A DNA stretch of 64,000 bases from Patescibacteria group bacterium (GCA_023379265.1 JAMCUI010000009.1:167802-231801); one strand, 5' to 3'; positions 3,777 to 43,102 are shown, counted from the first letter of the stretch. The notes: a model not told the origin generated them from the sequence alone. Program-made: numbers and translations.

Positions 3777-5993
3777 ATGCCGACAATTGACGATTTACGA
3801 CAAATCAGGATAGACAAACTGGAAAAGCTCAGGAAAATGGGGATAGATCCGTATCCGGCCAAAGTAGAAAGAGGGGAAAGTTTGGCTATTGCACGCGATA
3901 GGCTTGAAAAGCCGGTAAAAGTCATAGGTAGAATTGTGGCCATGCGTGGACATGGCGGGCTGATTTTTGCAGATATCGTTGACGAAAGCGGGAAAATTCA
4001 AGTAGCCTGTAAGGAAGATCAATTGGAGGAAAAAGCCTTTGAGCTGCTGCCCCTTCTAGATATAGGCGATTTTATTGCTGTCCAGGGGAACGTGGGAAAA
4101 ACTGTAGCAGGAGAGGTTACTGTTTTTGCTGATAGATTGCAGATTATTACTAAATCTCTAAACCCGTTGCCTGATAGGTGGTACGGTCTTAAAGACATTG
4201 AAGAGCGTTACCGCAAGCGTTATGTGGACATGCTTTTGAACCGGGAGGTAAAAGATCGGCTGACAAAGCGAAGCCAGGTAATTGGAGCGATGAGGGAATT
4301 TCTTATAAAAAGAGGTTTTATTGAGGTTGAAACTCCCACATTGCAGCCTATTTATGGTGGAGGGTTTGCCAGGCCTTTTGTCACACATCACAACGTTTTG
4401 GATACTGATTTTTATCTTCGTATTTCTGATGAGATGTACTTAAAAAGGCTTATCGTAGGAGGTTTTGAGAAGGTTTTTGAAATTACAAAGGTTTTCCGCA
4501 ACGAAGGAATCGATCACGACCATAATCCGGAATTTACCATGTTTGAGGCACAGATTGCTTATGAAGATTACAGTTTTGGGATGGATATTACAGAGGAAAT
4601 TATTGAATACACTGCCAAAAAAATCCTAGGTAAAACCGCTTTTTCCTATCAGGGTACGGCAATGGAGGTGGCGCGTCCCTGGCAAAGATACAAACTTACT
4701 GAAGCAATTAGTCGTTTTACCGGTTTTGATCCGATGAAATGGCAGACATTGAGTGAAGCCCGTGAGGCTGTAAGACAAATGGATATTCCGGAAGATAAGC
4801 TTTCTCTTATGAAACAGGTGAGAACTTTGGGAGAAATGATAGCCTTTGCTTTTGAACACGCAGTGGAGAAAAAACTTATGCAGCCCACAATTATTTATGA
4901 TTTTCCAATTGAGGTTTCTCCACTTGCAAAAAAATGCGACGATCCCCGGTTTACCCAACGGTTTGAAGTGTTTGCATTTGGTTCTGAATTGGGAAATAAC
5001 TATACAGAACTCAATGACCCTTTGGATCTCTTAAAAAGATTTATAGAAGAGAAAAAAAGGGAAGCGGCAGGTTTTGCTGAAGCCCAACAGACAGATTACG
5101 ATTATATTGAGGCTATAGAGCACGGGTTTCCTCCAACGTGCGGTTTAGGTATTGGTATTGATCGATTAGTGATGCTTTTGACTGACGCCAAAAACATAAA
5201 AGAAGTAATACCTTTTCCGACACTGCGTCCACAGCAGCCAAGCGGACACGAAAAAAAGGTTGAAGCGCAGGATAGTCAGGTTAAGATAGATAATGTCAAT
5301 ATTATTTCCAAACCTGATTATTTCAGCATTTCAGCTGATTTGGGGAAAGCATTTCCTTCATTGTCTGTTGGTATTGCTCTTATTAAAGGTGTAAATATAA
5401 AAAAAAGCGATCCGGCACTTGAACTTGAGAAAGAAAATTTCCTGGAACTCTTAACGGGATTGACTAATGACGTGATTAGCGGTTATAAGGAAGTATTAAG
5501 CTATAGGAAGCTCTATAAGGCTATGGGTGTCGATTGGCATTCCCGCCGTCCTTCTCCTGAAGCGCTTTTGCGCCGTGTATCCCAGGGGAAAGGACTTTAT
5601 ACAGTAAATACTTGTGTTGACGCTTATAACTTGGTTGTAATGAAGAACAGGGTCTCGGTTGGCGCTTTTGACGCAAAAAACGTACACTTTCCTACCGTAT
5701 TGCGTTTTGCTGCAGGGGGAGATGAGATACTTCTTTTAGGAGATAAGGAGCCAACAAAATATACTGTTTGGGAGTTAGCCTATTATGACAAGTTGGGCGG
5801 GTTTAATATAGATTTCAATTATCGTGATGCACAAAGGACTATGGTGACAGAGGAAACAAAAGACATATGGATAAATGTTGATGGTATATTTGATATAATA
5901 CCTTCTCAAGTTGAAGAAAGCCTTAAGTTATCTGTAAATTTAATAAGGAAATACTGCGGCGGCGATGTCGAATTTATGGGTGTCGTAGTATAG
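3777..5993 (+). CDS. lysS: lysyl-tRNA synthetase (class II) fused to a C-terminal PheT-type B3/4 domain
   Basis: The N-terminal ~500 aa carry the anticodon-binding OB fold and class II motifs (FRNEGIDHDHNPEFTMFEA; GFPPTCGLGIGIDRLVMLL). Residues ~520-738 (VNTCVDAYNLVVMKNRVSVGAFDAKNV...VLRFAAGGDEILLLGDKEP...) match the B3/4 domain of Phe-tRNA synthetase beta. Confidence 0.85.
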   Translation: MPTIDDLRQIRIDKLEKLRKMGIDPYPAKVERGESLAIARDRLEKPVKVIGRIVAMRGHGGLIFADIVDESGKIQVACKEDQLEEKAFELLPLLDIGDFIAVQGNVGKTVAGEVTVFADRLQIITKSLNPLPDRWYGLKDIEERYRKRYVDMLLNREVKDRLTKRSQVIGAMREFLIKRGFIEVETPTLQPIYGGGFARPFVTHHNVLDTDFYLRISDEMYLKRLIVGGFEKVFEITKVFRNEGIDHDHNPEFTMFEAQIAYEDYSFGMDITEEIIEYTAKKILGKTAFSYQGTAMEVARPWQRYKLTEAISRFTGFDPMKWQTLSEAREAVRQMDIPEDKLSLMKQVRTLGEMIAFAFEHAVEKKLMQPTIIYDFPIEVSPLAKKCDDPRFTQRFEVFAFGSELGNNYTELNDPLDLLKRFIEEKKREAAGFAEAQQTDYDYIEAIEHGFPPTCGLGIGIDRLVMLLTDAKNIKEVIPFPTLRPQQPSGHEKKVEAQDSQVKIDNVNIISKPDYFSISADLGKAFPSLSVGIALIKGVNIKKSDPALELEKENFLELLTGLTNDVISGYKEVLSYRKLYKAMGVDWHSRRPSPEALLRRVSQGKGLYTVNTCVDAYNLVVMKNRVSVGAFDAKNVHFPTVLRFAAGGDEILLLGDKEPTKYTVWELAYYDKLGGFNIDFNYRDAQRTMVTEETKDIWINVDGIFDIIPSQVEESLKLSVNLIRKYCGGDVEFMGVVV

Positions 5994-15576: not shown

Positions 15577-15873
15577 TTGTTTCTGTCCAGATATAAAAGA
15601 AAGGCGGTGAGAAATATGTGGATGCATTATGGATATGGAGGGGGAATAGGCTGGGGTTTTCCTTCACTTTTTTGGATACTTTTTATAGTATTTCTAGCAG
15701 GATTTATACTCGTTCTTCTTGGTTCCCATGATGAAAGGGATAAATCAAGAAGTGAAGAAAATGATAGTAGAGAGCCGGAAGAGGATACAGCTATTGAGAT
15801 TTTGCGTGAACGCTATGCAAAAGGAGAAATCACTAAAAGGCAATTTCAGGACATGAAACGGGATCTGTTATAA
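15577..15873 (+). CDS. SHOCT-domain membrane protein
   Basis: One TM helix followed by a C-terminal LRERYAKGEITKRQFQDMKRDL (SHOCT motif). Confidence 0.55.
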   Translation: MFLSRYKRKAVRNMWMHYGYGGGIGWGFPSLFWILFIVFLAGFILVLLGSHDERDKSRSEENDSREPEEDTAIEILRERYAKGEITKRQFQDMKRDLL

Positions 15874-16752
15874 GGTGGAATTTCCGCTGAGATTTATGGC
15901 AGAATTGACGAATTTCTCTTCTGAATTACCCTTTTTCTCAAAAAAAAGGTAAGGCTCAGTAAGTTCAAGTTCCATTAATTGGAATTGACCACGTATATTC
16001 AGACCGTCAACACGGGCATATAAAAGTGGGGAATAGATGTTTTCCAGCACTTTTTGTGATTGGGAGATAAGAGATTGGGACGGATTGACCGCAATTTCCT
16101 TTCCGCCAAATTCCCTCTGGGAGCGGAATTCATTTTTTTGGGGAACCTTTAAGATGGCATGGCTATATTCTTTGTTGATGAAGATAAAAGAATATTCGCC
16201 CTCAGTTATAATTTCTTCCATGAATGGTTGTATCAATATGTTTTCGTTTGAAAAAAGATTAGAAAGAGTGGGATTACTTGTAGTAAATTCAGCAGTATTT
16301 ATCCTAAATGTTTTATAGCTTGAAGCCCCATGAATTGGTTTGATGATAATATTCTTCCATCCGGCTAAAATTGCATTATTTCTGGTTTCATCAATAGAAT
16401 CTTTTGTACATAAAAGCGTAGGCATGATAGGAATGCCGATTTTCTGCAGATTAAAGAGGTAACTTTTATCAGTGTTCCACCTAATTATTTCTGGAGGATT
16501 CCAAAGGTTTACCTTTTTCTCAATACACTGATCGATCCAACTGTAGAATTCCTTCAGCCTTGTGTGGTAGTCCCAGCACGAACGTAAAATCACGATATCA
16601 AAATCGGTCCAATCAATATCTTTCTTGTCCCACGGAATAGCTATAGGAACAAATCCTCTTTTCCGGAACGGTTCAATGAGTAGTTTGTCACCGTCAAACA
16701 GTTTTGGATAACCCTTCCAGGTGACAAGAGCAACGGATTTCATTTTAAACAA
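15868..16752 (-). CDS. ATP-grasp family ligase (RimK/GshB-like)
   Basis: IIIKPIHGASSYKTF (K-P-x-x-G-S loop) and a C-terminal ...GQFQLMELELTEPYLF (E-x-N region). 294 aa. Confidence 0.55.
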   Translation of the reverse strand: MFKMKSVALVTWKGYPKLFDGDKLLIEPFRKRGFVPIAIPWDKKDIDWTDFDIVILRSCWDYHTRLKEFYSWIDQCIEKKVNLWNPPEIIRWNTDKSYLFNLQKIGIPIMPTLLCTKDSIDETRNNAILAGWKNIIIKPIHGASSYKTFRINTAEFTTSNPTLSNLFSNENILIQPFMEEIITEGEYSFIFINKEYSHAILKVPQKNEFRSQREFGGKEIAVNPSQSLISQSQKVLENIYSPLLYARVDGLNIRGQFQLMELELTEPYLFFEKKGNSEEKFVNSAINLSGNSTL

Positions 16753-16893
16753 TTCCAGTTATTGCTGGTAATTTCTCGTTACAAATTGCACTGATGTCAT
16801 CTCCGCGAAGGCGGAGATCCAGAGAAATAGTATATGATTCCCGGTCAGATCGGGAATGACAATTTAATAAAAATAAGAGAACAGAAGTTGGTA

Positions 16894-18441
16894 TTATCCA
16901 TTTATTATTCTTACAGTTTTTTCTAATACAGTTAATATTTTCTCTATTTCCAACCGGTTTTCTGTACCAACTGAAATACGGATAAAAGGATCTCCATATT
17001 TAGTCCATAAAGAGGTAAGGTAAATTCTTGTGTGATTCAGGCCGAAACTTGTGCCATGGTGAAATTCCACTTTTGCCCTTTTGGCTTCTTCCATGACACT
17101 TTTAATAAATTGCTTATACAATTTGACATCAGGTTTAGTGAAGCCGATATTAAAAAAACTGCCTGTAAATGTAGGTTTTTGGACAGGGTATATTATCGAA
17201 TTTACATATTTACCGCTTGTAGTGTCTATAAATTGTTGAAGCTTTTGGGTCAATATGCTAGTGTTTCTGGAAAATCTTTTGAGGCGTCTGTCCAACATTT
17301 TCCGGTTCGGAATAGGGAATTGATAAACTCCCATATCAGTGATGTTGGTACCGGAGTTTTTCCTCCAGTCATAAAGTTTACCAATGTCTTTTCCCCTGGC
17401 AACAATTATTCCTCCTGTGGTTCTATCCATGCCGAAATGGTGGTACTTCATAAGGCTTTCAAAGACAATGAGGCCGATATTTCTTTTTAGGGGTGAAAGC
17501 GTTCTAAAAGGTTGAAAGGATGTGGATAGGCAAGTGTTATCTATAACTAAAAAAATGTTCCAGTCGCACTCTTTTTCCATATATTTGATGAGACTTTTAA
17601 GATCTGGAAACGGCAAATCCGCAGTGTTGCAAAGAGAGTCGATAAATATAGCAGACGGTCTGACTTTTTTAACCAAATCCTTTAATTTCTCAAGGTCAAT
17701 TTCATCAAATTCAATAATCCTGTCGTCCAGAGGATTAGACAATAAATTCTTGTATTGGAAATAGGATGACTTACCCAACAGCACTTTTCCCTCCAGTTTA
17801 CCCTCTCCCATAAGGAAATTGAAAATAGTGGTAAAAGCAGCCATGCCGCTGGCAGTCATATAAGTTTTTATACCTACTTTTACCAGTGCATCAATATTTT
17901 GATTAAGAAACTTCTTTTCATATCCGGTTTCGTCCAGGTGCGCATCACGTTTGTAATCAATCAGGGTAGCCAAAATTTTGCCGGTTTGGCTTCCCGCTTG
18001 GGAGAAAAGCGTGTGGGAAGCGGTGGGAGATTGCCAGTCAAGACTCGTAACCGCTGCAGCGGTTTGGTTATAAAGGGCCCTTAATTTTTCAAAGTTGACT
18101 CTTTTATGAAAAGAAGCCTCAAGTATAGCTTTCTGACTTTTATTTGTTTCATTTAGGTCCTTTTTGGCGGTAGATAAACGTTGAAGGAGATTATTATATT
18201 GAGAAATAAGAAGATTAATATTATTCTTTATGTCAATTAGTATCTCGGGGATAATGGATTTTCTAACCCGTTCCAGGTTTAGTTCAAATCTATTTAGTTG
18301 AGTTATCCCAGACCGGGCGATATACTCCAATTCTTCAAAATCTTTCTGGAGGTCATAGACAGTTTCTTCCAGAATTAATTTTTCTTTTTCAGGATCAGGC
18401 ATATATCTATTTTTAGTACACAACCCACCACGCACCACCAA
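16894..18441 (-). CDS. PLP-dependent enzyme of the Cys/Met-metabolism family (cystathionine gamma-synthase/beta-lyase-like) with a ~170-aa N-terminal coiled-coil extension
   Basis: LVIDNTCLSTSF...ESLMKYHHFGMDRTTGGII matches the xVDNTF...HSATKYLxGHSD PLP-lysine block. The N-terminus is heptad-rich. Confidence 0.55.
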   Translation of the reverse strand: MVVRGGLCTKNRYMPDPEKEKLILEETVYDLQKDFEELEYIARSGITQLNRFELNLERVRKSIIPEILIDIKNNINLLISQYNNLLQRLSTAKKDLNETNKSQKAILEASFHKRVNFEKLRALYNQTAAAVTSLDWQSPTASHTLFSQAGSQTGKILATLIDYKRDAHLDETGYEKKFLNQNIDALVKVGIKTYMTASGMAAFTTIFNFLMGEGKLEGKVLLGKSSYFQYKNLLSNPLDDRIIEFDEIDLEKLKDLVKKVRPSAIFIDSLCNTADLPFPDLKSLIKYMEKECDWNIFLVIDNTCLSTSFQPFRTLSPLKRNIGLIVFESLMKYHHFGMDRTTGGIIVARGKDIGKLYDWRKNSGTNITDMGVYQFPIPNRKMLDRRLKRFSRNTSILTQKLQQFIDTTSGKYVNSIIYPVQKPTFTGSFFNIGFTKPDVKLYKQFIKSVMEEAKRAKVEFHHGTSFGLNHTRIYLTSLWTKYGDPFIRISVGTENRLEIEKILTVLEKTVRIING

Positions 18442-18451
18442 TCATTTTTTA

Positions 18452-19687
18452 CTATTTTGTAATCAACTCATCTCCCTGATAATTTCTCAGTTTTGGAATA
18501 AGCAAGGCTAAAAGTCCGACTGCGGCCAGAGTTCCCACTCCTCCCAGGACAACAGAGAAAGGAGCGCCTAACATGGCAGCGGTTATCCCTGCTTCGGTTT
18601 CACCCAGCTGAGGCCCGCCCATAAAAAATATCATATTTATTGAGACCATTCTGCCTCGTATATGATCGGGTGTCGCCAGTTGTCTTATTGTATTTCTTAT
18701 TATTGTACTGATGACGTCGCCTGCTCCGGTCAGAAAGAGGAATAGTATTGAGAGATAAAATGATTTCGATAAACCAAAGAAAATTGTGGCAAGGCCATAG
18801 ATTGAAACTGCCGTAAGGAGTATTTTCCCCTGGTGTTTTATGTGGCCCAAAGAGGAAACAAAGAGGCCTGCGCTAACTGCTCCTATTGAAGCTGCAGCAT
18901 AAAGTATACCCATCCCTTGGGGTCCGACTTTGAGTATATCTTTGGCAAATATGGGCAAAAGGACCGTGGCTGAGGCAAAAAATGTGGCAAAAAAGTCTAA
19001 AAGCATAGTGGAATAGATAATGGGAGTGTTTATGACGAATCTTATTCCGTCTCTCACAGTATCAAGATTAAAATCTACCTTAATTGGTCGAGGCGATTTC
19101 GGAGGCCGTATGGCAAACAGGGAAAAAATTACCGCCAGAAAAGAAAGGGCATTGAGAGTGTAAACCGCACCAACTCCATGCAAAGCGATAATAAATCCTG
19201 CAATGGTAGGGCCAATCACCATAGCAGATTGCCACATGATGGTATTGAGGCTGACAGCGTTGATGAAGTATTTTTCAGGCACGAGTGCAGGAACAAGTGA
19301 CTGACGTGCGGGGGTTTCAAAAGATGTAGCAATAGAGTTTATCGCCAGAAGAATATAGATGAGGAGGGGACTGATATTATGGGTAAACGTGGTGATCGCG
19401 AAAATAAAAGCGGTGGCCATAGATATGGTTTGTGCAGCAATCATCAGTTTTTTTCGGTCAGCGATATCTGCTATCATTCCTCCCGCCAGTGAAAAAAAGA
19501 TAATCGGTAAAAACCTTGATAATCCTATAAGTCCAAGGGAAAGAGCAGAACCAGTGATAAGATAAATTTGCCAGTTTAGAGCGACTACCTGCATTTCCGA
19601 TCCAATTCTAGAGATAAGCATCCCCAACCATAAAAGTCGGAAATCTCTAAATTGTAAGGCTAAAAATGGATGATAACGAGGTTTCAT
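18452..19687 (-). CDS. MFS transporter (efflux type)
   Basis: 12 TM helices with an N-terminal LALQFRDFRLLWLGMLISRIGSEMQ signature. Confidence 0.8.
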   Translation of the reverse strand: MKPRYHPFLALQFRDFRLLWLGMLISRIGSEMQVVALNWQIYLITGSALSLGLIGLSRFLPIIFFSLAGGMIADIADRKKLMIAAQTISMATAFIFAITTFTHNISPLLIYILLAINSIATSFETPARQSLVPALVPEKYFINAVSLNTIMWQSAMVIGPTIAGFIIALHGVGAVYTLNALSFLAVIFSLFAIRPPKSPRPIKVDFNLDTVRDGIRFVINTPIIYSTMLLDFFATFFASATVLLPIFAKDILKVGPQGMGILYAAASIGAVSAGLFVSSLGHIKHQGKILLTAVSIYGLATIFFGLSKSFYLSILFLFLTGAGDVISTIIRNTIRQLATPDHIRGRMVSINMIFFMGGPQLGETEAGITAAMLGAPFSVVLGGVGTLAAVGLLALLIPKLRNYQGDELITK

Positions 19688-37914: not shown

Positions 37915-38553
37915 ATGACTGACAAGTTGAGATGGGTTTTTATCAGATTAGCATTAATCCTTATACTGTGCTTTTTCTTCCTAAGCATACTGGTAAACAG
38001 AGATATTTTCCGCACTTTTGATTACAATTTTCTTCTTGTTCTCCAAAATCACTTGAGTAGATTATTTGATATACCCTTTTCTTTGTTTTCACTAGCAGGC
38101 TCAACGGAAGCGACAATTTTAATTTTAATATTGTTGTATTTTTATTTCCTATTCAAAAGGCATCATATTTTTATAGGAATGGCTCTTTATTTTCTTATTT
38201 TTGTCGTTGAAGTTTTCGGCAAAATGTATATAAACCATCCTGTCACGCCTGAAGTGTTCCATAGATACGCCTTGAGTTTCAGCTTGCCGAGCGGTTCGAT
38301 AATTGATACAAATTTTTCCTATCCTTCAGGGCATATGGCTAGAACTTCCTATATAGCTATTATTGCTTTTTTTATAGTTTTTACGTCCGGGTGGAGTAAA
38401 AGAATGAAGAAAATAATAGTTTTATTAATATTTTCTTTTATGATTATGATGTTTATCAGTAGGATTTATCTTGCTGAACACTGGATATCGGATGTATTGG
38501 GAGGGATGCTTTTAGGGGCAGGAATAGCTTTTGCTTCCCTCAGTTTCTGGTAA
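37915..38553 (+). CDS. PAP2 family lipid phosphatase (undecaprenyl-pyrophosphate phosphatase-like)
   Basis: SYPSGHMARTS (PSGH) and SRIYLAEHWISDVLGG (SRxxxxxHxxxD) PAP2 motifs, 5-6 TM helices. Confidence 0.7.
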   Translation: MTDKLRWVFIRLALILILCFFFLSILVNRDIFRTFDYNFLLVLQNHLSRLFDIPFSLFSLAGSTEATILILILLYFYFLFKRHHIFIGMALYFLIFVVEVFGKMYINHPVTPEVFHRYALSFSLPSGSIIDTNFSYPSGHMARTSYIAIIAFFIVFTSGWSKRMKKIIVLLIFSFMIMMFISRIYLAEHWISDVLGGMLLGAGIAFASLSFW

Positions 38554-39256
38554 AAATATGAATGACTATTCTAGTTTAATCAGGCCTTTTTTGGACGAAT
38601 ATCTGAGGATGGAAATTAATGGAATAGAGATTGCATGTCCTTACTGGATGAATAAGATAAGAAAAGGAAAGGTGGTACTGAGGGGATTTGCCAACGGAAA
38701 GGGAACTGCAGGCGAAATAAAAAAAGAGATTCTAAGGAATATAAATTTGCAGGCATGTATGAACGATAAAAGCAGTTTATACAAGCTGGCTAAAAGGGAA
38801 AGGATCGGTATTGACTGTTCAGGATTGTCATACAGAATATTGGATAAGCTTTTGGATATGGGTTATGCAAAAGAAATAAAGCAGGGATTTTCCTTAAATG
38901 AAGTATTTTCCGGAGGAATTGATAGAACCAATGTAATAAGATTTACAAGTAGTGAATACGCCGTTCAAGTAGAGAAGATTTCAGAAGTTAAATTGGGTGA
39001 TGTCATACGCATGATGAGAGGTAAGCATATGCTTGTCATACTTACAAAAAATAGCACGGAAATAAAATATATACATTCATCTAAATCAACCGAAATTTAT
39101 GGTGTTCATGAAGGGATAATAAAAATAAAAGATTGGACAGAACCTCTTGAAAAGCAAGAATGGCAAGAAATTACTCGAAAAGGTGAAAACTTTGGAAGAA
39201 GATATTTCCATCCTGAGTCAAAAGATGGAATCTATCGTTTAAGAATTTTCTCCTGA
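38531..39256 (+). CDS. NlpC/P60-like papain-fold hydrolase (tentative)
   Basis: GIDCSGLSYRI (Cys motif) followed by GDVIRMMRGKHMLVIL...IHSS (His and third catalytic residue) in the NlpC/P60 order. Confidence 0.4.
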   Translation: MLPSVSGKNMNDYSSLIRPFLDEYLRMEINGIEIACPYWMNKIRKGKVVLRGFANGKGTAGEIKKEILRNINLQACMNDKSSLYKLAKRERIGIDCSGLSYRILDKLLDMGYAKEIKQGFSLNEVFSGGIDRTNVIRFTSSEYAVQVEKISEVKLGDVIRMMRGKHMLVILTKNSTEIKYIHSSKSTEIYGVHEGIIKIKDWTEPLEKQEWQEITRKGENFGRRYFHPESKDGIYRLRIFS

Positions 39257-39258
39257 AT

Positions 39259-40695
39259 ATGGCCGTAAAGGAATTTATTGATTCTCTACATAGTAAAAAA
39301 ATACATATTGTTGGTGTTACCGGTTCTGAGGGTAGTGGAATACTTCGTTTTCTTCAGAAGAATGAGGTGCGAAACATTACGGCTCACGATTTTTCAACTT
39401 TTGAAACACTGGAAAAAAGTTACAAGCTTTGGCATAAGGGTGTCCCGAAGGATGAAAGAAAGAGAATGTTTAGTCAGTTCATGTCTGATCTTAATCTTGT
39501 TACAGGCAGATTCGGAAAAGATTATTTATCAGATATTTTGGAAGCCGATGTCATTTTTGTTCCTCAGTCCTGGAGACTTTATTCTCAAGAAAACGCTCCT
39601 TTATGGCAAGCAATAAAAAAAGGAATTCCTTTCTTTTCTCTCACCAGACTATATCTTGAATTGTCTCAGGCAACCGTTATAGGCGTGACGGGAACAGTTG
39701 GGAAAGGTAGTGTTGTAAATTTAATAGTTAACTTATTACAATCTGTGGGTAAAAGTGTCTATTTTGCGGGGAACGATACCTGGATGACTCAGATAGCCGA
39801 AAAGCTTGACGGTATGACAAATAAGGATTATCTTGTACTTGAAATTTCTCATCGTCAGCTTCAGGATGGGATAAGCCGTTGTCCTCATGTTGCGGTAATT
39901 ACTAATCTATTTCCCAACCATCAAGATGAAGTGGGTTGGGGAAAATACAAACAGTTAAAACTATCTCTTTTATCGCGTCAAACAGAAAATGATTATGTCG
40001 TGTTGAACTATGACAATTTAGAATTGAGGAATATTACTGATCAAATTAAATCGCAAATCCTATATTACAGCGTTAAATCTATAGATAAGAACAATTTAAG
40101 TATTCAAAATATGTTTCATATACTAAAGAATATAAATAGTGATCAATATTTTGAGAATATATTGGCCGCATCAACTGTAGCAAATTTATTGAATATTCCA
40201 AATGAAGAGATATTAGAATCATTAGAAGGGATTCAATCGTTACCAGCCAGACTTCAATTGATTGATACAGTGTCTGGTATAAAAATCTATGATGATATCA
40301 AAAGCACTACTCCTTGGGCGACTATGGCTGCGTTGGAAAGAATTACAAACGGCATATTTCTAATTATTGGAGGTAATACAAAAGGTATAGATTATCTGAC
40401 ATTTTTTGAAAAGATTAAAAATATGAAAGGAAATATTAAAAAAATATACGCTCTGCCAAGCCAATTATCGGATTTTTTGAAAAATAAAGGATTAGAAGAT
40501 GATTATTTGATAATTGACAATAATTTGGAATCCGCACTCAAAGATTGCTTCCTACAATCGCAAAATGGCGATTCAATTCTTGTCTCTCCGGCAGCAGCAT
40601 TTTTCTATACAAAATTTATAAAAGGGAAAAAGTCACTAAGAGATATAGTTATTTCTCTTCCTCCAAAGGGGAGAGTTGCAGAGGCTCGAGGCTAA
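39259..40695 (+). CDS. murD: Mur ligase, MurD-like (UDP-MurNAc-L-Ala:D-Glu ligase family)
   Basis: N-terminal Rossmann HIVGVTGSEGSG, ATP-site VIGVTGTVGKGSV, and a C-terminal IYDDIKSTTPWATMAAL similar to MurD NDSKATNVGATEAAL. Confidence 0.55.
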   Translation: MAVKEFIDSLHSKKIHIVGVTGSEGSGILRFLQKNEVRNITAHDFSTFETLEKSYKLWHKGVPKDERKRMFSQFMSDLNLVTGRFGKDYLSDILEADVIFVPQSWRLYSQENAPLWQAIKKGIPFFSLTRLYLELSQATVIGVTGTVGKGSVVNLIVNLLQSVGKSVYFAGNDTWMTQIAEKLDGMTNKDYLVLEISHRQLQDGISRCPHVAVITNLFPNHQDEVGWGKYKQLKLSLLSRQTENDYVVLNYDNLELRNITDQIKSQILYYSVKSIDKNNLSIQNMFHILKNINSDQYFENILAASTVANLLNIPNEEILESLEGIQSLPARLQLIDTVSGIKIYDDIKSTTPWATMAALERITNGIFLIIGGNTKGIDYLTFFEKIKNMKGNIKKIYALPSQLSDFLKNKGLEDDYLIIDNNLESALKDCFLQSQNGDSILVSPAAAFFYTKFIKGKKSLRDIVISLPPKGRVAEARG

Positions 40696-40825
40696 CAATT
40701 TCGCTTTCCGTGCCGCAAGCAGGACATTCCACTACATGTCCGGCTTTTGTATCTTGAATAATTATGAGAGGCGTGTCACATTCAGGGCATTTTGCACTGA
40801 TGCCTTTGTCCGAAGAGTCATCCAT
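40649..40825 (-). CDS. LysW/ArgW-like amino-group carrier protein (zinc ribbon, 58 aa)
   Basis: Hand translation of the minus strand gives MDDSSDKGISAKCPECDTPLIIIQDTKAGHVVECPACGTESEIVSLEPLQLSPLEEEK. It has two CPxCG knuckles and an acidic EIVSLEPLQL...EEE tail as in the LysW family. It is below the 60-aa cutoff of the ORF track and overlaps the murD-like 3' end by 47 bp. Confidence 0.5.
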   Translation of the reverse strand: MDDSSDKGISAKCPECDTPLIIIQDTKAGHVVECPACGTESEIVSLEPLQLSPLEEEK

Positions 40826-40848
40826 AATATAATTAAATCATATTTTCT

Positions 40849-41769
40849 ATGGACAGACAAGTGAAAAAAGGGATTTGGGAATACCAAAAGTTACTTCCAA
40901 AAGTAGAGAGGAATTTCCAAAAAACGTTGGATGAGGGAAGTACATCTCTAAAAAGGGAAGAAAGCATTTATTTTAAGTGCGAGTACGAAAATCCTACAGG
41001 TTCAGTAAAGGATAGAAGTCTTGCCTACCAGACTGCAGTGTTGGAAGAAAAAGGCATAAATTCCGCAGTTATCTCATCATCTGGAAATGCAGCCATATCT
41101 GCAGCCTGTTATTGCAATCTTCATGGGATCAAGTTAACGGTTTTCGTTTCTCCTAATATAAACAAAAACAAATTGGAGGTATTGAAAAAATCAGGATGTA
41201 GGTTGGAGATAAGTGATAAACCAGTAAGTAATGCTTTTAAGTATGCAAAAGAGAATAATGTATATAATCTCAGACAATCCAAAGACGAAAATGCGCTTTT
41301 CGGATATGAAACTTTAGCGTATGAACTGTTTACAGAGGGTAGTTTTGGGGAAAAGCCGGACGCAGTATTTCTGCCTGTCAGCAGTGGTACGACTCTTGTG
41401 GGCTTTTCGTTGGGATGCGAGAAGTTGGGTTACCATCCTGCTATTCATTTTGTCCAGTCGCAATCTATTCATCCTTTGGCCAGATTATATGACAGAGATT
41501 TTATTGAGAGTAAAAAAAGTGTTGCGGATGCGATTGTCGCCCGTTTTACTCCACGACAACTTCAGATATCAGATATTGTAGAGAGAAGCAAAGGTTTTGG
41601 TTGGGTTATATCTGATGAAGAGGCGGAAAGAGAACATAGATACCTTTTAGGCAAAGGTTATGACTGTTCCGTAGAAGGCGGTCTTACTTTGGGGGCGGTG
41701 AAGAAAGCGGCAAAGAATGGTTATAAATACGAGCATCCTTTGTGCGTCCTGACGGGGAAAAATTACTAA
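40849..41769 (+). CDS. threonine-synthase-like fold-type II PLP enzyme
   Basis: GIWEYQKLLP N-terminus and YENPTGSVKDRS PLP-lysine motif, with glycine-rich SSGNAAIS. 306 aa. Confidence 0.7.
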   Translation: MDRQVKKGIWEYQKLLPKVERNFQKTLDEGSTSLKREESIYFKCEYENPTGSVKDRSLAYQTAVLEEKGINSAVISSSGNAAISAACYCNLHGIKLTVFVSPNINKNKLEVLKKSGCRLEISDKPVSNAFKYAKENNVYNLRQSKDENALFGYETLAYELFTEGSFGEKPDAVFLPVSSGTTLVGFSLGCEKLGYHPAIHFVQSQSIHPLARLYDRDFIESKKSVADAIVARFTPRQLQISDIVERSKGFGWVISDEEAEREHRYLLGKGYDCSVEGGLTLGAVKKAAKNGYKYEHPLCVLTGKNY

Positions 41770-41782
41770 TATTCTGTTTATT

Positions 41783-43102
41783 ATGAATAAATGGCAGGAT
41801 AGTTTCTCAGATGAACAAATTTTTTACATCACTCCTGATGTAAAAAGGGGTATAGGATTAGACACTGTGTTGCCAGGTTATCACATAGTATGTTTGTATC
41901 CTGATCCTATAATTTCACCATTGAGAAAAAAAGGAGCCAATATATTTTGTCTTTCTGAAAAGGAAAGATTGGATAAGCTGGAATCTTATGCCACATCCGG
42001 AAGTCTTCTGACACATCCTTTAGTCTCCGAATATATTGAAATGCGAAGCAAACATCCAAATATTTTGGTTTTTAAGCCGTCAAAGAAAGTGGAATTTTTA
42101 TGCAGCGAAAGGGGTTATAGACTTTTGGTGAATACAAGAGAACTAAACGATCGGTTTGAAGATAAGGTGCTTTTTTATGAATTGATTAGAGACAAGATAG
42201 TGGAAAATAGTGTTCCGGGATTAACGGGTAGGTTAAAGGATATGAAGTTTGAAATGATAGTCAAGGAATTGGATCTTCCTTTTGTCGTGCAGTTTGCCCA
42301 CGGATGGGCCGGTAAGACGACGTTCTTTATCGACTCTGAAGATGGCCTTGAAAAGATAACAGACAAATTTCCTCATACGAAAGTTAAAGTAAATAAATAC
42401 ATCGAAGGCTTTACATTGTTGAATAATGTTTGTGTTTTGAGTGATGGAAATATTCTAATGAGTCCTGTTGCGTTGCAGATTGGCGGTATTCCCGAGCTGC
42501 GGGAAAAGAAAGGGGTGACCTGCGGCAGACAATGGCCGGTTGATTTTATTGAAGCTGATCAGAATAAGCTGATAACGGAAATAACTGAAAAAGTAGGAAA
42601 ATTGATGTTTATAGATGGTTTCAAAGGTTTCTTTGGATTGGATTTTATAGTGGAAAAAAATAGCGGTAAAACATATATTTCGGAATGTAACGCCAGGTTT
42701 ACCGCATCATCTGCTTTTTTTACCAGGCTTGAAGCTGATGCTGGTTTAGTGCCAATGGCCTCTTTTCATCTGGCGGCTTTTTTAGACAGAGATTATCCAT
42801 TTCACTATTCACAAGATGAGAATTTATCCGCTTCACAGCTTATCCTTCGTAATTCCGCGGTTCAACCAAAATATATTTCAGGAAGAAATTTTGGAGTTTT
42901 TGGGATGGAAGGTAAGACGGCAGTGTATTTGCGGGATGAATATGAACCTTATTTACTTGAAAAAGGAGAATTCATCTATTCCCGCCGGAGCGAACATTTT
43001 GTCAGAAGTGAAGACGCAGAAATATCTCGAATAGAAACTAAAGATAGAGTAGTTGGAAAGCCGGGTCAGTTGGGAGAGTGGATAAAGAATCTGATTATTT
43101 GA
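41783..43102 (+). CDS. ATP-grasp domain ligase
   Basis: LPFVVQFAHGWAGKTTFFI (central-domain loop) and FFGLDFIVEKNSGKTYISECNARF (E-x-N C-terminal). 439 aa. Confidence 0.6.
   Translation: MNKWQDSFSDEQIFYITPDVKRGIGLDTVLPGYHIVCLYPDPIISPLRKKGANIFCLSEKERLDKLESYATSGSLLTHPLVSEYIEMRSKHPNILVFKPSKKVEFLCSERGYRLLVNTRELNDRFEDKVLFYELIRDKIVENSVPGLTGRLKDMKFEMIVKELDLPFVVQFAHGWAGKTTFFIDSEDGLEKITDKFPHTKVKVNKYIEGFTLLNNVCVLSDGNILMSPVALQIGGIPELREKKGVTCGRQWPVDFIEADQNKLITEITEKVGKLMFIDGFKGFFGLDFIVEKNSGKTYISECNARFTASSAFFTRLEADAGLVPMASFHLAAFLDRDYPFHYSQDENLSASQLILRNSAVQPKYISGRNFGVFGMEGKTAVYLRDEYEPYLLEKGEFIYSRRSEHFVRSEDAEISRIETKDRVVGKPGQLGEWIKNLII

What the first reader, a model, noticed from the sequence alone, without database searches (positions are those of the whole stretch)
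38531..43102. Hidden LysW-like carrier-protein gene flanked by MurD-like ligase, ThrC-like PLP enzyme and ATP-grasp ligase: candidate novel amino-group-carrier pathway
An unlisted 58-codon ORF lies on the minus strand at 40649..40825. It translates to MDDSSDKGISAKCPECDTPLIIIQDTKAGHVVECPACGTESEIVSLEPLQLSPLEEEK, with two CPxCG zinc knuckles about 20 aa apart followed by a flexible acidic tail. This is the architecture and near-motif of LysW/ArgW amino-group carrier proteins (CPECGAEL...VVxCxDCGAELEVVSLDPLxLE...). Its start lies 24 bp from, and divergent to, a threonine-synthase-like PLP enzyme (SVKDR lysine), which is followed by a 439-aa ATP-grasp ligase; LysX, the enzyme that loads LysW, is also an ATP-grasp. 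Upstream lie a MurD-like ligase and an NlpC/P60-like enzyme. None of LysZ/LysY/LysJ/LysK is present, and the tail ends ...EEEK rather than ...EDWGE. So this is not the known lysine/arginine route. A carrier-tethered pathway that uses a ThrC-type beta/gamma-replacement enzyme in a small-genome organism would be undescribed.
Basis: partly seen in the sequence, partly recalled or inferred. Interest (0 to 1): 0.8.

Follow-up and report, generated by a model that had tools for sequence, protein, structure and literature searches.

The report
LysW-like carrier in cell-wall gene cluster
A tiny zinc-binding protein related to the lysine-pathway carrier LysW, but always ending in Glu-Glu-Lys, travels with four enzymes next to or in place of the cell-wall gene murD in many uncultured bacteria, which points to an undescribed carrier-protein step in building the cell-wall peptide.

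Summary
The 58-codon ORF at 40649..40825 (-) is real and conserved. Its zinc-ribbon domain is LysW-type (Pfam 43.4 bits against a cut-off of 27; hhalign 99%). It is not hidden: NCBI already names it "lysine biosynthesis protein LysW", and that name is probably wrong. It scores below NCBIfam's LysW cut-offs, and no LysX/Z/Y/J/K was found near it. In all 77 module-linked loci examined the tail ends ...EEK, never ...EDWGE.

The new point is the context. The gene is locked to a ThrC-fold PLP enzyme, a non-LysX ATP-grasp ligase and a cytoplasmic NlpC/P60 hydrolase (fused to the ATP-grasp in one lineage). In several lineages a distinctive MurD-subfamily ligase joins them. In about 50 Shapirobacteria-type loci the module fills the slot between mraY and ftsW where murD normally sits. 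In L025 it wraps around murD in that slot. In a 64% G+C genome the five genes form one operon. Carriers with this tail also occur in Candidatus Dormibacteria.

My best reading, which is inferred, is a carrier-protein pathway feeding the MurD step of peptidoglycan stem-peptide synthesis. The substrate and the attachment chemistry are unknown. I found no paper describing it.

The parts
40649..40825 (-). LysW-type zinc-ribbon carrier-like protein, 58 aa, with two CPxC knuckles and an invariant C-terminal ...PLEEEK
   Evidence: Translation. Pfam PF21344 43.4 bits against GA 27. NCBIfam LysW models 36-37 bits, below the cut-offs of 53.2 and 75. hhalign against canonical LysW gives 99.0%, E 3.6e-18, over the globular domain only. 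The EEK tail is present in all 77 module-linked loci.
40849..41769 (+). Fold-type II PLP enzyme with a threonine-synthase-like fold, 306 aa; PLP lysine K54 in the SVKDR motif
41783..43102 (+). ATP-grasp ligase, 439 aa, not of the LysX/RimK type; the presumed loader of the carrier
39259..40695 (+). MurD-subfamily Mur ligase, 478 aa, with a remodelled N-terminal domain and D-Glu site; its 3' end overlaps the carrier gene's 3' end by 47 nt (40649..40695)
   Evidence: TIGR01087 murD scores 186 bits, below the 212 cut-off. The orthologs in L025, L093 and L019 score 259, 256 and 249. The best PDB hits are all MurD. The motifs ExS[H/N]R and PNH, and the loss of AS(L/W/F)D..N(F/Y)..RG, are shared by all module-linked ligases from 39% to 78% G+C. 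The N-domain carries a conserved insertion.
38531..39256 (+). Cytoplasmic NlpC/P60-like cysteine hydrolase, 241 aa as listed (the likely start is the ATG at 38558); the presumed releasing amidase
   Evidence: Pfam NLPC_P60 scores only 16.2 bits against GA 23. GIDCSG, GxH and YxHxS are invariant across 14 orthologs, and there is no signal peptide. hhalign against canonical domains gives E 4e-4 and 35% probability. Canonical NlpC/P60 domains occupy the same place in L025 and L093 and are fused to the ATP-grasp in P0120.

Best explanation
The small protein is the carrier, or swinging-arm partner, of a conserved gene module. The module has four or five genes: an EEK-tailed LysW-type protein, an ATP-grasp ligase, a ThrC-fold PLP enzyme, a cytoplasmic NlpC/P60 amidase and, in several lineages, a special MurD-subfamily ligase. 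The module works in the cytoplasmic stage of peptidoglycan stem-peptide synthesis, at or around the MurD step (position 2, normally D-Glu).

Shown: the homology of each part, the invariant EEK tail, the gene linkage across distant lineages, one gene fusion, and the placement in the murD slot of the dcw cluster.

Inferred: the ATP-grasp uses ATP to attach an amino acid to the carrier's tail. The PLP enzyme makes or converts that amino acid. The NlpC/P60 enzyme hydrolyses the carrier-product amide. The MurD-like ligase uses the product.

My preferred concrete version is speculative (about 0.2). Glutamate is tied through its gamma-carboxyl to the epsilon-amine of the terminal lysine. Its free alpha-centre is epimerised by the PLP enzyme. 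The MurD-like ligase, which has lost the gamma-carboxylate pocket, couples UDP-MurNAc-L-Ala to the tethered D-Glu. The NlpC/P60 enzyme then cuts the gamma-D-glutamyl-lysine bond.
For: Carrier fold: Pfam score above GA, all 13 divergent members hit PF21344, and hhalign gives 99% to canonical LysW.

Tail: EEK in 50 of 50 module-linked metagenome loci, whereas 8 of the 10 hits without module genes end EEDWGE. EEK is also found in L001-L017, L019, L021, L025, L090-L094 and the window.

Linkage: 12 Microgenomates genomes. About 50 loci have the order murE-Ate-like-murC-murA-mraY-NlpC-carrier-PALP-ATPgrasp-ftsW-murG-ftsQ-ftsA-ftsZ. L025 reads mraY-...-NlpC/P60-MurD-carrier-PALP-ATPgrasp-ftsW-murG-murC-murB. 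L093 has all five genes co-directional in a 64% G+C genome. L091 is a 78% G+C genome. P0120 is an ATP-grasp::NlpC/P60 fusion.

Ligase: it belongs to the MurD family, but the D-Glu gamma-carboxylate motif is replaced in every module-linked copy while the P-loop and the K198 and K348 equivalents are kept. The N-domain has a conserved insertion.

ATP-grasp: its fold neighbours are amino-acid and peptide ligases, including PylC, which acylates a lysine epsilon-amine, and the gamma-glutamyl ligase BesA.

Background: Microgenomates lack amino-acid biosynthesis but keep peptidoglycan synthesis (PMC7143001). MurD2/MurL is a precedent for an alternative ATP-driven D-Glu route encoded beside a MurD paralog (PMC8788868).
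Against: There is no direct evidence that anything is attached to the tail.

The ATP-grasp is not LysX-like, so the carrier-loader pairing rests on gene linkage only.

A PLP enzyme cannot act on an alpha-N-acylated amino acid, so the LysW chemistry cannot be transferred, and the alternative attachment I propose has no direct precedent on a protein lysine.

A ThrC-type fold suggests beta/gamma-replacement rather than racemisation.

In Shapirobacteria-type loci no MurD-like gene is adjacent, and I could not check whole genomes for murD, murI, dat, alr or ddl.

In L093 the operon lies outside any dcw cluster, so its ligase could be a paralog with a role unrelated to the wall.

The distant relatives in L087 and L088 keep PALP-ATPgrasp-ftsW without a visible carrier gene on short contigs.

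The E. coli MurD sequence and the residue roles used for the motif comparison were recalled from memory. They agree with the residues named in PMC8788868.
Confidence: 0.5

Rival explanations
1. The PLP enzyme and the ATP-grasp are non-orthologous replacements for an amino-acid racemase and a D-Ala-D-X ligase (Alr/Ddl analogues). The zinc-ribbon protein is an accessory subunit, and the NlpC/P60 enzyme trims or recycles stem peptides.
Confidence: 0.12
2. The small protein is never covalently loaded. It is a zinc-ribbon structural or regulatory subunit whose acidic tail plugs into, or bridges, the MurD-like ligase, the ATP-grasp or the PLP enzyme.
For: There is no evidence for loading. The loader is not LysX-like. 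The CPR gene order, with opposite strand and overlapping 3' ends, suggests tight co-regulation.
Against: Absolute conservation of the last three residues, including the C-terminal one, across sequences of about 30% identity is typical of a reactive terminus that enters an active site. The homologous domain in LysW is a covalent carrier. A ligase-plus-amidase pair fits making and breaking a bond.
Confidence: 0.15
3. The module builds a peptide or polymer unrelated to the wall on the carrier tail used as a primer, much as cyanophycin synthetase combines an ATP-grasp with a Mur-like domain. Alternatively it makes a small secondary metabolite by the scaffold-peptide ('pearlin') logic.
For: The module combines an ATP-grasp, a Mur-type ligase and a hydrolase. 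The ligase has altered N- and C-terminal substrate domains. In L093 the operon is isolated from wall genes. Scaffold-peptide biosynthesis is established (PMC9303977, listed).
Against: About 50 loci place the module inside the dcw operon between mraY and ftsW, and L025 places its ligase exactly where murD belongs. These are minimal genomes with little room for secondary metabolism (PMC7143001).
Confidence: 0.1
4. It is an ordinary LysW/ArgW working in lysine or arginine biosynthesis, as the public annotation says.
For: PGAP gives it that name. It hits the Pfam LysW-domain model.
Against: It scores below both NCBIfam LysW cut-offs. The tail is EEK, not EDWGE. No LysX/Z/Y/J/K was found among the window ORFs scanned or in any related locus. 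The host lineage lacks amino-acid biosynthesis.
Confidence: 0.02
5. It is a ribosomal peptide (graspetide-like) precursor whose Glu and Lys side chains are cross-linked by the ATP-grasp.
For: An ATP-grasp lies next to a short peptide with Glu and Lys in its tail.
Confidence: 0.03

Closest known systems
[quoted passage not shown]
   Same: A homologous zinc-ribbon globular domain followed by a flexible acidic tail. It is encoded next to an ATP-grasp ligase. The likely logic is load, modify, then release by an amidase.
   Different: The tail ends in Lys (EEK) rather than Glu (EDWGE). The ATP-grasp belongs to a different subfamily. There is no kinase, reductase, aminotransferase or M20 hydrolase. 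The partners are a ThrC-fold PLP enzyme, an NlpC/P60 enzyme and a MurD-type ligase. The context is the cell-wall cluster, not amino-acid biosynthesis.
MurD2/MurL alternative peptidoglycan pathway of Xanthomonas and some actinobacteria (PMC8788868)
   Same: A divergent MurD-family ligase is encoded beside non-canonical genes that handle the position-2 glutamate. The conversion is driven by ATP. Some D-Glu-site substitutions resemble MurD2: Pro or Phe at the E. coli A414 and L416 positions.
   Different: MurL is a single protein without known domains. Here there are a carrier protein, an ATP-grasp, a PLP enzyme and a cysteine amidase. None of them was tested for any MurL-like activity.
Butirosin side-chain pathway BtrI/BtrJ/BtrK (from my own knowledge, not checked here)
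   Same: An ATP-grasp ligase ties glutamate through its gamma-carboxyl to a small carrier protein. A PLP enzyme then acts on the free alpha-amino-acid end, and a gamma-glutamyl-cleaving enzyme finishes the pathway.
   Different: That carrier is a phosphopantetheinyl ACP (thioester), the PLP enzyme is a decarboxylase of another fold, and the product is an antibiotic side chain.
[not shown]
   Same: A fold-type II PLP enzyme uses the C-terminus of a small carrier protein as its co-substrate.
   Different: The carrier has a ubiquitin-like fold with a C-terminal thiocarboxylate, and there is no ATP-grasp or Mur ligase.
Glutathionylspermidine synthetase/amidase (from my own knowledge)
   Same: An ATP-dependent amide-forming synthetase is joined to a CHAP/NlpC-P60-type amidase that cleaves the same kind of bond, as in the P0120 fusion.
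   Different: Its substrates are small molecules, and it has no carrier protein and no link to the cell wall.

Membership tests
LysW/ArgW amino-group carrier protein | Zinc-ribbon globular domain with two CxxC knuckles | tested here: met
   PF21344 scores 43.4 bits against GA 27. All 13 divergent members match it. hhalign against canonical LysW gives 99.0%, E 3.6e-18. The PDB hits are LysW 5k2m_E and 3wwl_A.
LysW/ArgW amino-group carrier protein | Reaches the curated equivalog score of the LysW models | tested here: not met
   TIGR01206 scores 36.4 against 53.2, and NF041070 scores 37.0 against 75.
LysW/ArgW amino-group carrier protein | C-terminal ...EDWGE, whose terminal Glu carries the substrate (the C-terminal E53 of T. 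kodakarensis LysW is attached to AAA; PMC12998189) | tested here: not met
   The tail ends EEK in all 77 module-linked loci. Eight of the ten LysW-like hits without module genes in the same scan end EEDWGE.
LysW/ArgW amino-group carrier protein | Loaded by a LysX/ArgX (RimK-type) ATP-grasp | tested here: not met
   [not shown]
LysW/ArgW amino-group carrier protein | Works with LysZ, LysY, LysJ and LysK | tested here: not met
   None was found among about 45 window ORFs scanned or in the gene lists of the related loci. Whole genomes were not searched.
LysW/ArgW amino-group carrier protein | Covalent attachment of a substrate to the tail | not testable with these tools
   This needs mass spectrometry of the protein after reaction with the ATP-grasp.
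[quoted passage not shown] | Reaches the TIGR01087 equivalog score | tested here: inconclusive
   The window protein scores 186.1, below 211.95. Its orthologs in L025, L093 and L019 score 258.7, 255.8 and 248.6. In every case the match starts only at about residue 110.
[quoted passage not shown] | Gene located between mraY and ftsW in the dcw cluster | tested here: inconclusive
   This holds in L025. It does not hold in the window or in L093, where the five genes lie elsewhere.
[quoted passage not shown] | C-terminal D-Glu-binding motif SPAxAS(L/W/F)D..N(F/Y)..RG (PMC8788868 names residues near D-Glu: D182, K348, A414, L416) | tested here: not met
   The motif is replaced by SPAAAFFY..FIKGK or SPACPGVF in all 15 module-linked ligases. 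The K348 equivalent is kept and D182 becomes N. The E. coli reference sequence was recalled from memory.
Threonine synthase (ThrC) | ThrC-type fold-type II PLP fold with the Schiff-base lysine | tested here: met
   [not shown]
Threonine synthase (ThrC) | Reaches the curated ThrC model scores; keeps the substrate-phosphate site | tested here: not met
   The best ThrC model scores 113.9 bits against a cut-off of 358. In the HMMER alignment to B. subtilis ThrC, the Arg of the NSxNPxR motif aligns with Ala. That residue's role is from my memory, so I give this point low weight.
NlpC/P60 cysteine hydrolases | Papain-like Cys-His-His catalytic residues | tested here: met
   GIDCSG, GxH and YxHxS are invariant in 14 orthologs.
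NlpC/P60 cysteine hydrolases | Reaches the Pfam PF00877 gathering score | tested here: not met
   The window protein scores 16.2 against 23, and hhalign against canonical domains gives only 35%. The counterparts in L025, L093 and P0120 do hit PF00877 or MepS-type models.

The most novel reading that the evidence does not exclude
Peptidoglycan stem-peptide synthesis in a large part of the Patescibacteria (Microgenomates) and in Dormibacterota includes a protein-tethered step. An amino acid, most likely the position-2 glutamate, is carried on the C-terminal lysine of a LysW-type protein. It is converted there by a ThrC-fold PLP enzyme, handed to a specialised MurD, and released by a cytoplasmic NlpC/P60 amidase. 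This would be a third, carrier-dependent solution to the D-Glu problem, after MurI/Dat and MurD2/MurL, and the first use of an amino-group-carrier-type protein in cell-wall synthesis.
Probability: 0.3. Interest if true: 0.9.

Novelty: new variant of a known kind. Interest (0 to 1): 0.8.

Why it matters
The cytoplasmic Mur pathway is among the best-studied and most conserved pathways in bacteria and is a major antibiotic target. A carrier protein has never been part of it. Here a LysW-type protein with a new reactive end and three unassigned enzymes sits in the murD slot of the division/cell-wall operon in many uncultured lineages. Public annotation calls the protein a lysine-biosynthesis component in organisms that make no amino acids.

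If the model holds, four things follow:
- It extends amino-group-carrier chemistry from a terminal Glu to a terminal Lys.
- It explains a set of 'hypothetical' genes conserved in CPR genomes.
- It corrects a systematic misannotation.
- It gives a shared, possibly ancestral, trait linking Patescibacteria with Dormibacterota.

All five proteins are small and soluble, so the model can be tested directly in vitro.

Tried and rejected
1. Classical Lys/Arg pathway. I rejected it because of the tail, the sub-threshold LysW scores, the absence of LysX/Z/Y/J/K, and the host's biology.
2. Plus-strand ORF 40676..40864 as the real gene. I rejected it because antisense frames are interrupted in relatives while the minus-strand ORF is always open.
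3. Synteny within Gottesmanbacteria as evidence. I discounted it because those genomes are collinear far beyond the module, including RF2, Nramp and PAP2. The argument rests on the distant loci instead.
4. EEK conservation as a by-product of the overlap with the murD-like 3' end. I rejected it because the tail is the same where there is no overlap (L002, L013, L019, L025, L093) or where the overlapping gene is different (L017, L021).
5. The 'MurD' hit in L082. On inspection it looks like a MurF-type ligase, judged from its C-terminal KGS..LER motif (from memory, not profile-tested).
6. Literature. Eight searches linking LysW or AmCP with peptidoglycan, MurD, Patescibacteria, ATP-grasp or ThrC found no description of this system.
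7. A metagenome scan with the full divergent carrier alignment failed for lack of a conserved block. I repeated it with two sequences.
9. Small ORFs next to PALP in L087 and L088 are membrane peptides, not carriers.
10. The ThrC phosphate-site argument could not be backed by a paper in the library, so I gave it low weight.
11. I could not examine whole genomes for murD, murI, dat, alr or ddl, and I could not run multimer structure predictions.


Full report
OBSERVATION. ORFs of this size are common by chance in this 39% G+C window, so length alone proves nothing. Three results make it a gene. It matches Pfam PF21344 (Zn_ribbon_LysW) at 43.4 bits, above the gathering score of 27. Its best solved relatives are LysW from Thermococcus and Thermus. 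It is intact in every relative examined, whereas in some of them the antisense frames contain stops. That last result disposes of the overlapping plus-strand ORF. The gene is not hidden in public data: the identical protein is NCBI MCL4338747.1, named 'lysine biosynthesis protein LysW'. The neighbours are as described: an NlpC/P60-like protein, a MurD-like ligase, a PALP enzyme with the SVKDR lysine whose start lies 23 nt from the small gene's start, and a 439-aa ATP-grasp.

WHAT THE SMALL PROTEIN IS. A profile of 13 divergent relatives aligns with a profile of canonical LysW at 99.0% probability (E 3.6e-18). The aligned region is the globular zinc ribbon and stops just before the tail. All 13 hit PF21344. 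The protein still fails NCBIfam's LysW equivalog cut-offs (36-37 bits against 53 and 75), and its tail is different. In the metagenome scan, all 50 module-linked copies with a complete C-terminus end in EEK: ELIEEK 19, ELVEEK 14, ELFEEK 5, and others. Of the ten hits with no module genes nearby, eight end in the canonical EEDWGE. The other two are a longer acidic protein ending EEDWLQ (L079) and an unrelated large ORF (L085). Adding the genome and look-up loci gives 77 module-linked loci, all ending EEK. These include the window (PLEEEK), L017 (ELIEEK), L019 (MVMEEK), L025 (LVEEEK), L091 (FDEEEK) and L093 (FEEEEK). In a library clustered at 50% identity, 36 of the best 150 representatives carry an E-[E/D/T]-K end, so the subfamily is large. 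The tail is also conserved where the gene does not overlap a neighbour, so it is not a by-product of dual coding.

THE MODULE. Within Gottesmanbacteria the whole region is collinear, which says little. The distant loci are decisive.
- In UBA1372 (L017), Shapirobacteria (L021/L022) and about 50 metagenome contigs, the order is murE, an arginyltransferase-like gene, murC, murA, mraY, NlpC-like, carrier (opposite strand), PALP, ATP-grasp, ftsW, murG, ftsQ, ftsA, ftsZ. The module therefore occupies the slot between mraY and ftsW where murD normally lies.
- In L082 and L063 a ligase that looks like MurF precedes mraY, which gives the canonical order with the module in murD's place.
- In L025 the cluster reads mraY, two other genes, NlpC/P60, MurD-type ligase, carrier, PALP, ATP-grasp, ftsW, murG, murC, murB.
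- In L019 the ATP-grasp and an NlpC/P60 domain are one 652-aa protein, next to PALP, the carrier and a Mur ligase.
- In L093 (64% G+C) NlpC/P60, Mur ligase, carrier, PALP and ATP-grasp are co-directional and flanked by unrelated genes.
- In L091 (78% G+C) the order is Mur ligase, carrier, PALP, ATP-grasp.
- Source names place EEK-tailed carriers of the GC-rich type (P0382 and P0395) in Candidatus Dormibacteria. The organisms behind L091 and L093 are not reliably named.
The linkage thus survives changes of phylum, gene order, strand and base composition, plus one fusion event. That is strong evidence for a shared function.

THE ENZYMES.
(a) Ligase. Its best solved relatives are all MurD. The orthologs in L025, L093 and L019 pass the MurD equivalog cut-off (259, 256 and 249 against 212), while the window's copy scores 186. 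All 15 module-linked ligases nevertheless form a distinct subfamily. ExSSF becomes ExS[H/N]R, and EDH becomes PNH. The C-terminal motif that holds the gamma-carboxylate of D-Glu is replaced by hydrophobic residues, while the P-loop and the K198 and K348 equivalents remain. The N-terminal domain, which binds UDP-MurNAc in MurD, carries a conserved, rather basic insertion of about 25 residues and lacks the SPGI motif. The E. coli sequence used as ruler was recalled from memory. The residues it highlights agree with those named in PMC8788868.
(d) Hydrolase. The window's 241-aa protein has invariant GIDCSG, GxH and YxHxS motifs and no signal peptide. Canonical cytoplasmic NlpC/P60 domains take its place in L025, L093 and P0120.

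HOW IT MOST LIKELY WORKS. Shown: homology, the conserved tail, linkage, the fusion, and placement in the wall cluster. Everything else is inferred.

The simplest reading copies the logic, not the chemistry, of the LysW system. An ATP-dependent ligase attaches a substrate to the flexible tail. An enzyme transforms the substrate while it is tethered. An amidase releases it. The constant association with a MurD-type ligase, or with murD's slot, places the product at the second position of the stem peptide.

Because a PLP enzyme needs a free alpha-amine, the substrate cannot be tied on through that amine as in LysW. The invariant terminal lysine offers an epsilon-amine to which an acidic amino acid could be tied through its side-chain carboxyl. 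PylC and, from my own knowledge, BtrJ/BtrI/BtrK are chemical precedents for this. That arrangement would leave the alpha-centre free for the PLP enzyme and for the ligase. It would explain why the ligase has lost its gamma-carboxylate pocket. It would also give the NlpC/P60 enzyme, a family known for cutting gamma-D-glutamyl bonds, an obvious job.

I put about 0.5 on the general model and about 0.2 on this specific version. Other versions remain open: addition to the C-terminal carboxylate, or beta-replacement with the lysine amine as nucleophile as in SbnA-type enzymes.

RIVALS. Five rivals are scored in the report: racemase/Ddl analogues with an accessory ribbon (0.12), a subunit that is never covalently loaded (0.15), a peptide or polymer unrelated to the wall and built on the tail (0.10), classical Lys/Arg biosynthesis (0.02), and a graspetide precursor (0.03). 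The main weakness of my preferred model is the lack of any direct evidence for loading. In addition, I could not inspect whole genomes for murI, dat, alr, ddl or a second murD. In Shapirobacteria-type genomes I could not tell whether murD is elsewhere or absent.

COMPARISON WITH WHAT IS KNOWN. It works like an amino-group carrier system, but it fails four defining features of LysW membership: the equivalog score, the EDWGE tail, a LysX-type loader, and the LysZ/Y/J/K partners. The nearest precedent in cell-wall synthesis is MurD2/MurL, which also couples a divergent MurD to an ATP-driven conversion of glutamate but uses unrelated proteins. Eight literature searches found nothing that links LysW-type proteins with peptidoglycan or with these enzymes. 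Known AmCP pathways are Lys/Arg biosynthesis and DADH-type secondary metabolism.

VERDICT. The feature is a new variant of a known kind: a LysW-type carrier with a new reactive end, new partner enzymes and a new pathway context. Its precise chemistry is unknown. Interest is 0.8.

Noticed in passing
window 15868..19687 (-): There is a second ATP-grasp/PLP pair. A 294-aa ATP-grasp has D-cycloserine synthetase DcsG as its best hit (155 bits, cut-off 360). Beside it lie a 515-aa Cys/Met-metabolism-type PLP enzyme and an MFS transporter.
   Followed up: partly
L021 2070..2660; L017 12481..13089; about 25 further loci: A conserved 196-202-aa arginyltransferase (Ate/Bpt)-like gene sits between murE and murC in Shapirobacteria-type dcw clusters (NCBIfam PRK01305, E 7e-6). 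It may be an aminoacyl-tRNA-dependent transferase acting on the wall peptide.
   Followed up: partly
L025 1945..3081: A 378-aa membrane-anchored protein encoded just after mraY also ends ...FFEEK, the same last three residues as the carrier. This may be coincidence, or it may be a second protein carrying the same C-terminal tag.
   Followed up: no
L025 3093..4667: An Amidohydro_3 protein (PRK09061-like, 195 bits) lies directly upstream of NlpC/P60-MurD-carrier. I recall that CDD formerly called this model 'D-glutamate deacylase', which would fit a D-Glu theme. I did not verify that name.
   Followed up: no
window 40649..40848; L001, L017, L021: In CPR genomes the carrier gene lies on the strand opposite to all its neighbours. 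Its start is only 23-36 nt from the PALP start, and its 3' end overlaps the ligase or the NlpC-like gene (47 nt in the window). In L093 it is co-directional. I did not work out how it is transcribed in the CPR arrangement.
   Followed up: no
L020 6846..9398: A distant relative of the ATP-grasp (P0119, 29% identity) sits beside a MATCAP-type carboxypeptidase homologue (PF08014), with no carrier, PALP or Mur genes. This hints that the wider ATP-grasp family may modify peptide C-termini.
   Followed up: no
L087 645..4796; L088 274..3366: Distant lineages keep the order PALP, ATP-grasp, ftsW without a recognisable carrier gene on these short contigs. The adjacent small ORFs are hydrophobic membrane peptides.
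   Followed up: partly
L090/L091 (P0349): NCBI names this protein as coming from a 'Candidatus Micrarchaeia archaeon', but the contig has 78% G+C and encodes a Mur ligase and an N-acetylmuramoyl-L-alanine amidase. It is probably a mis-binned bacterial contig.
   Followed up: partly
window 3777..5993 (+): A 738-aa class-II aminoacyl-tRNA synthetase (Asp/Lys/Asn type) carries a C-terminal B3/4 domain, which is normally found in the phenylalanyl-tRNA synthetase beta subunit.
   Followed up: no
representative library hits P0246-P0330: Many proteins of 115-185 aa contain two or three tandem LysW-type ribbons without an EEK or EDWGE tail. P0251 (103 aa) has two ribbons and does end in IEEEK.
   Followed up: no
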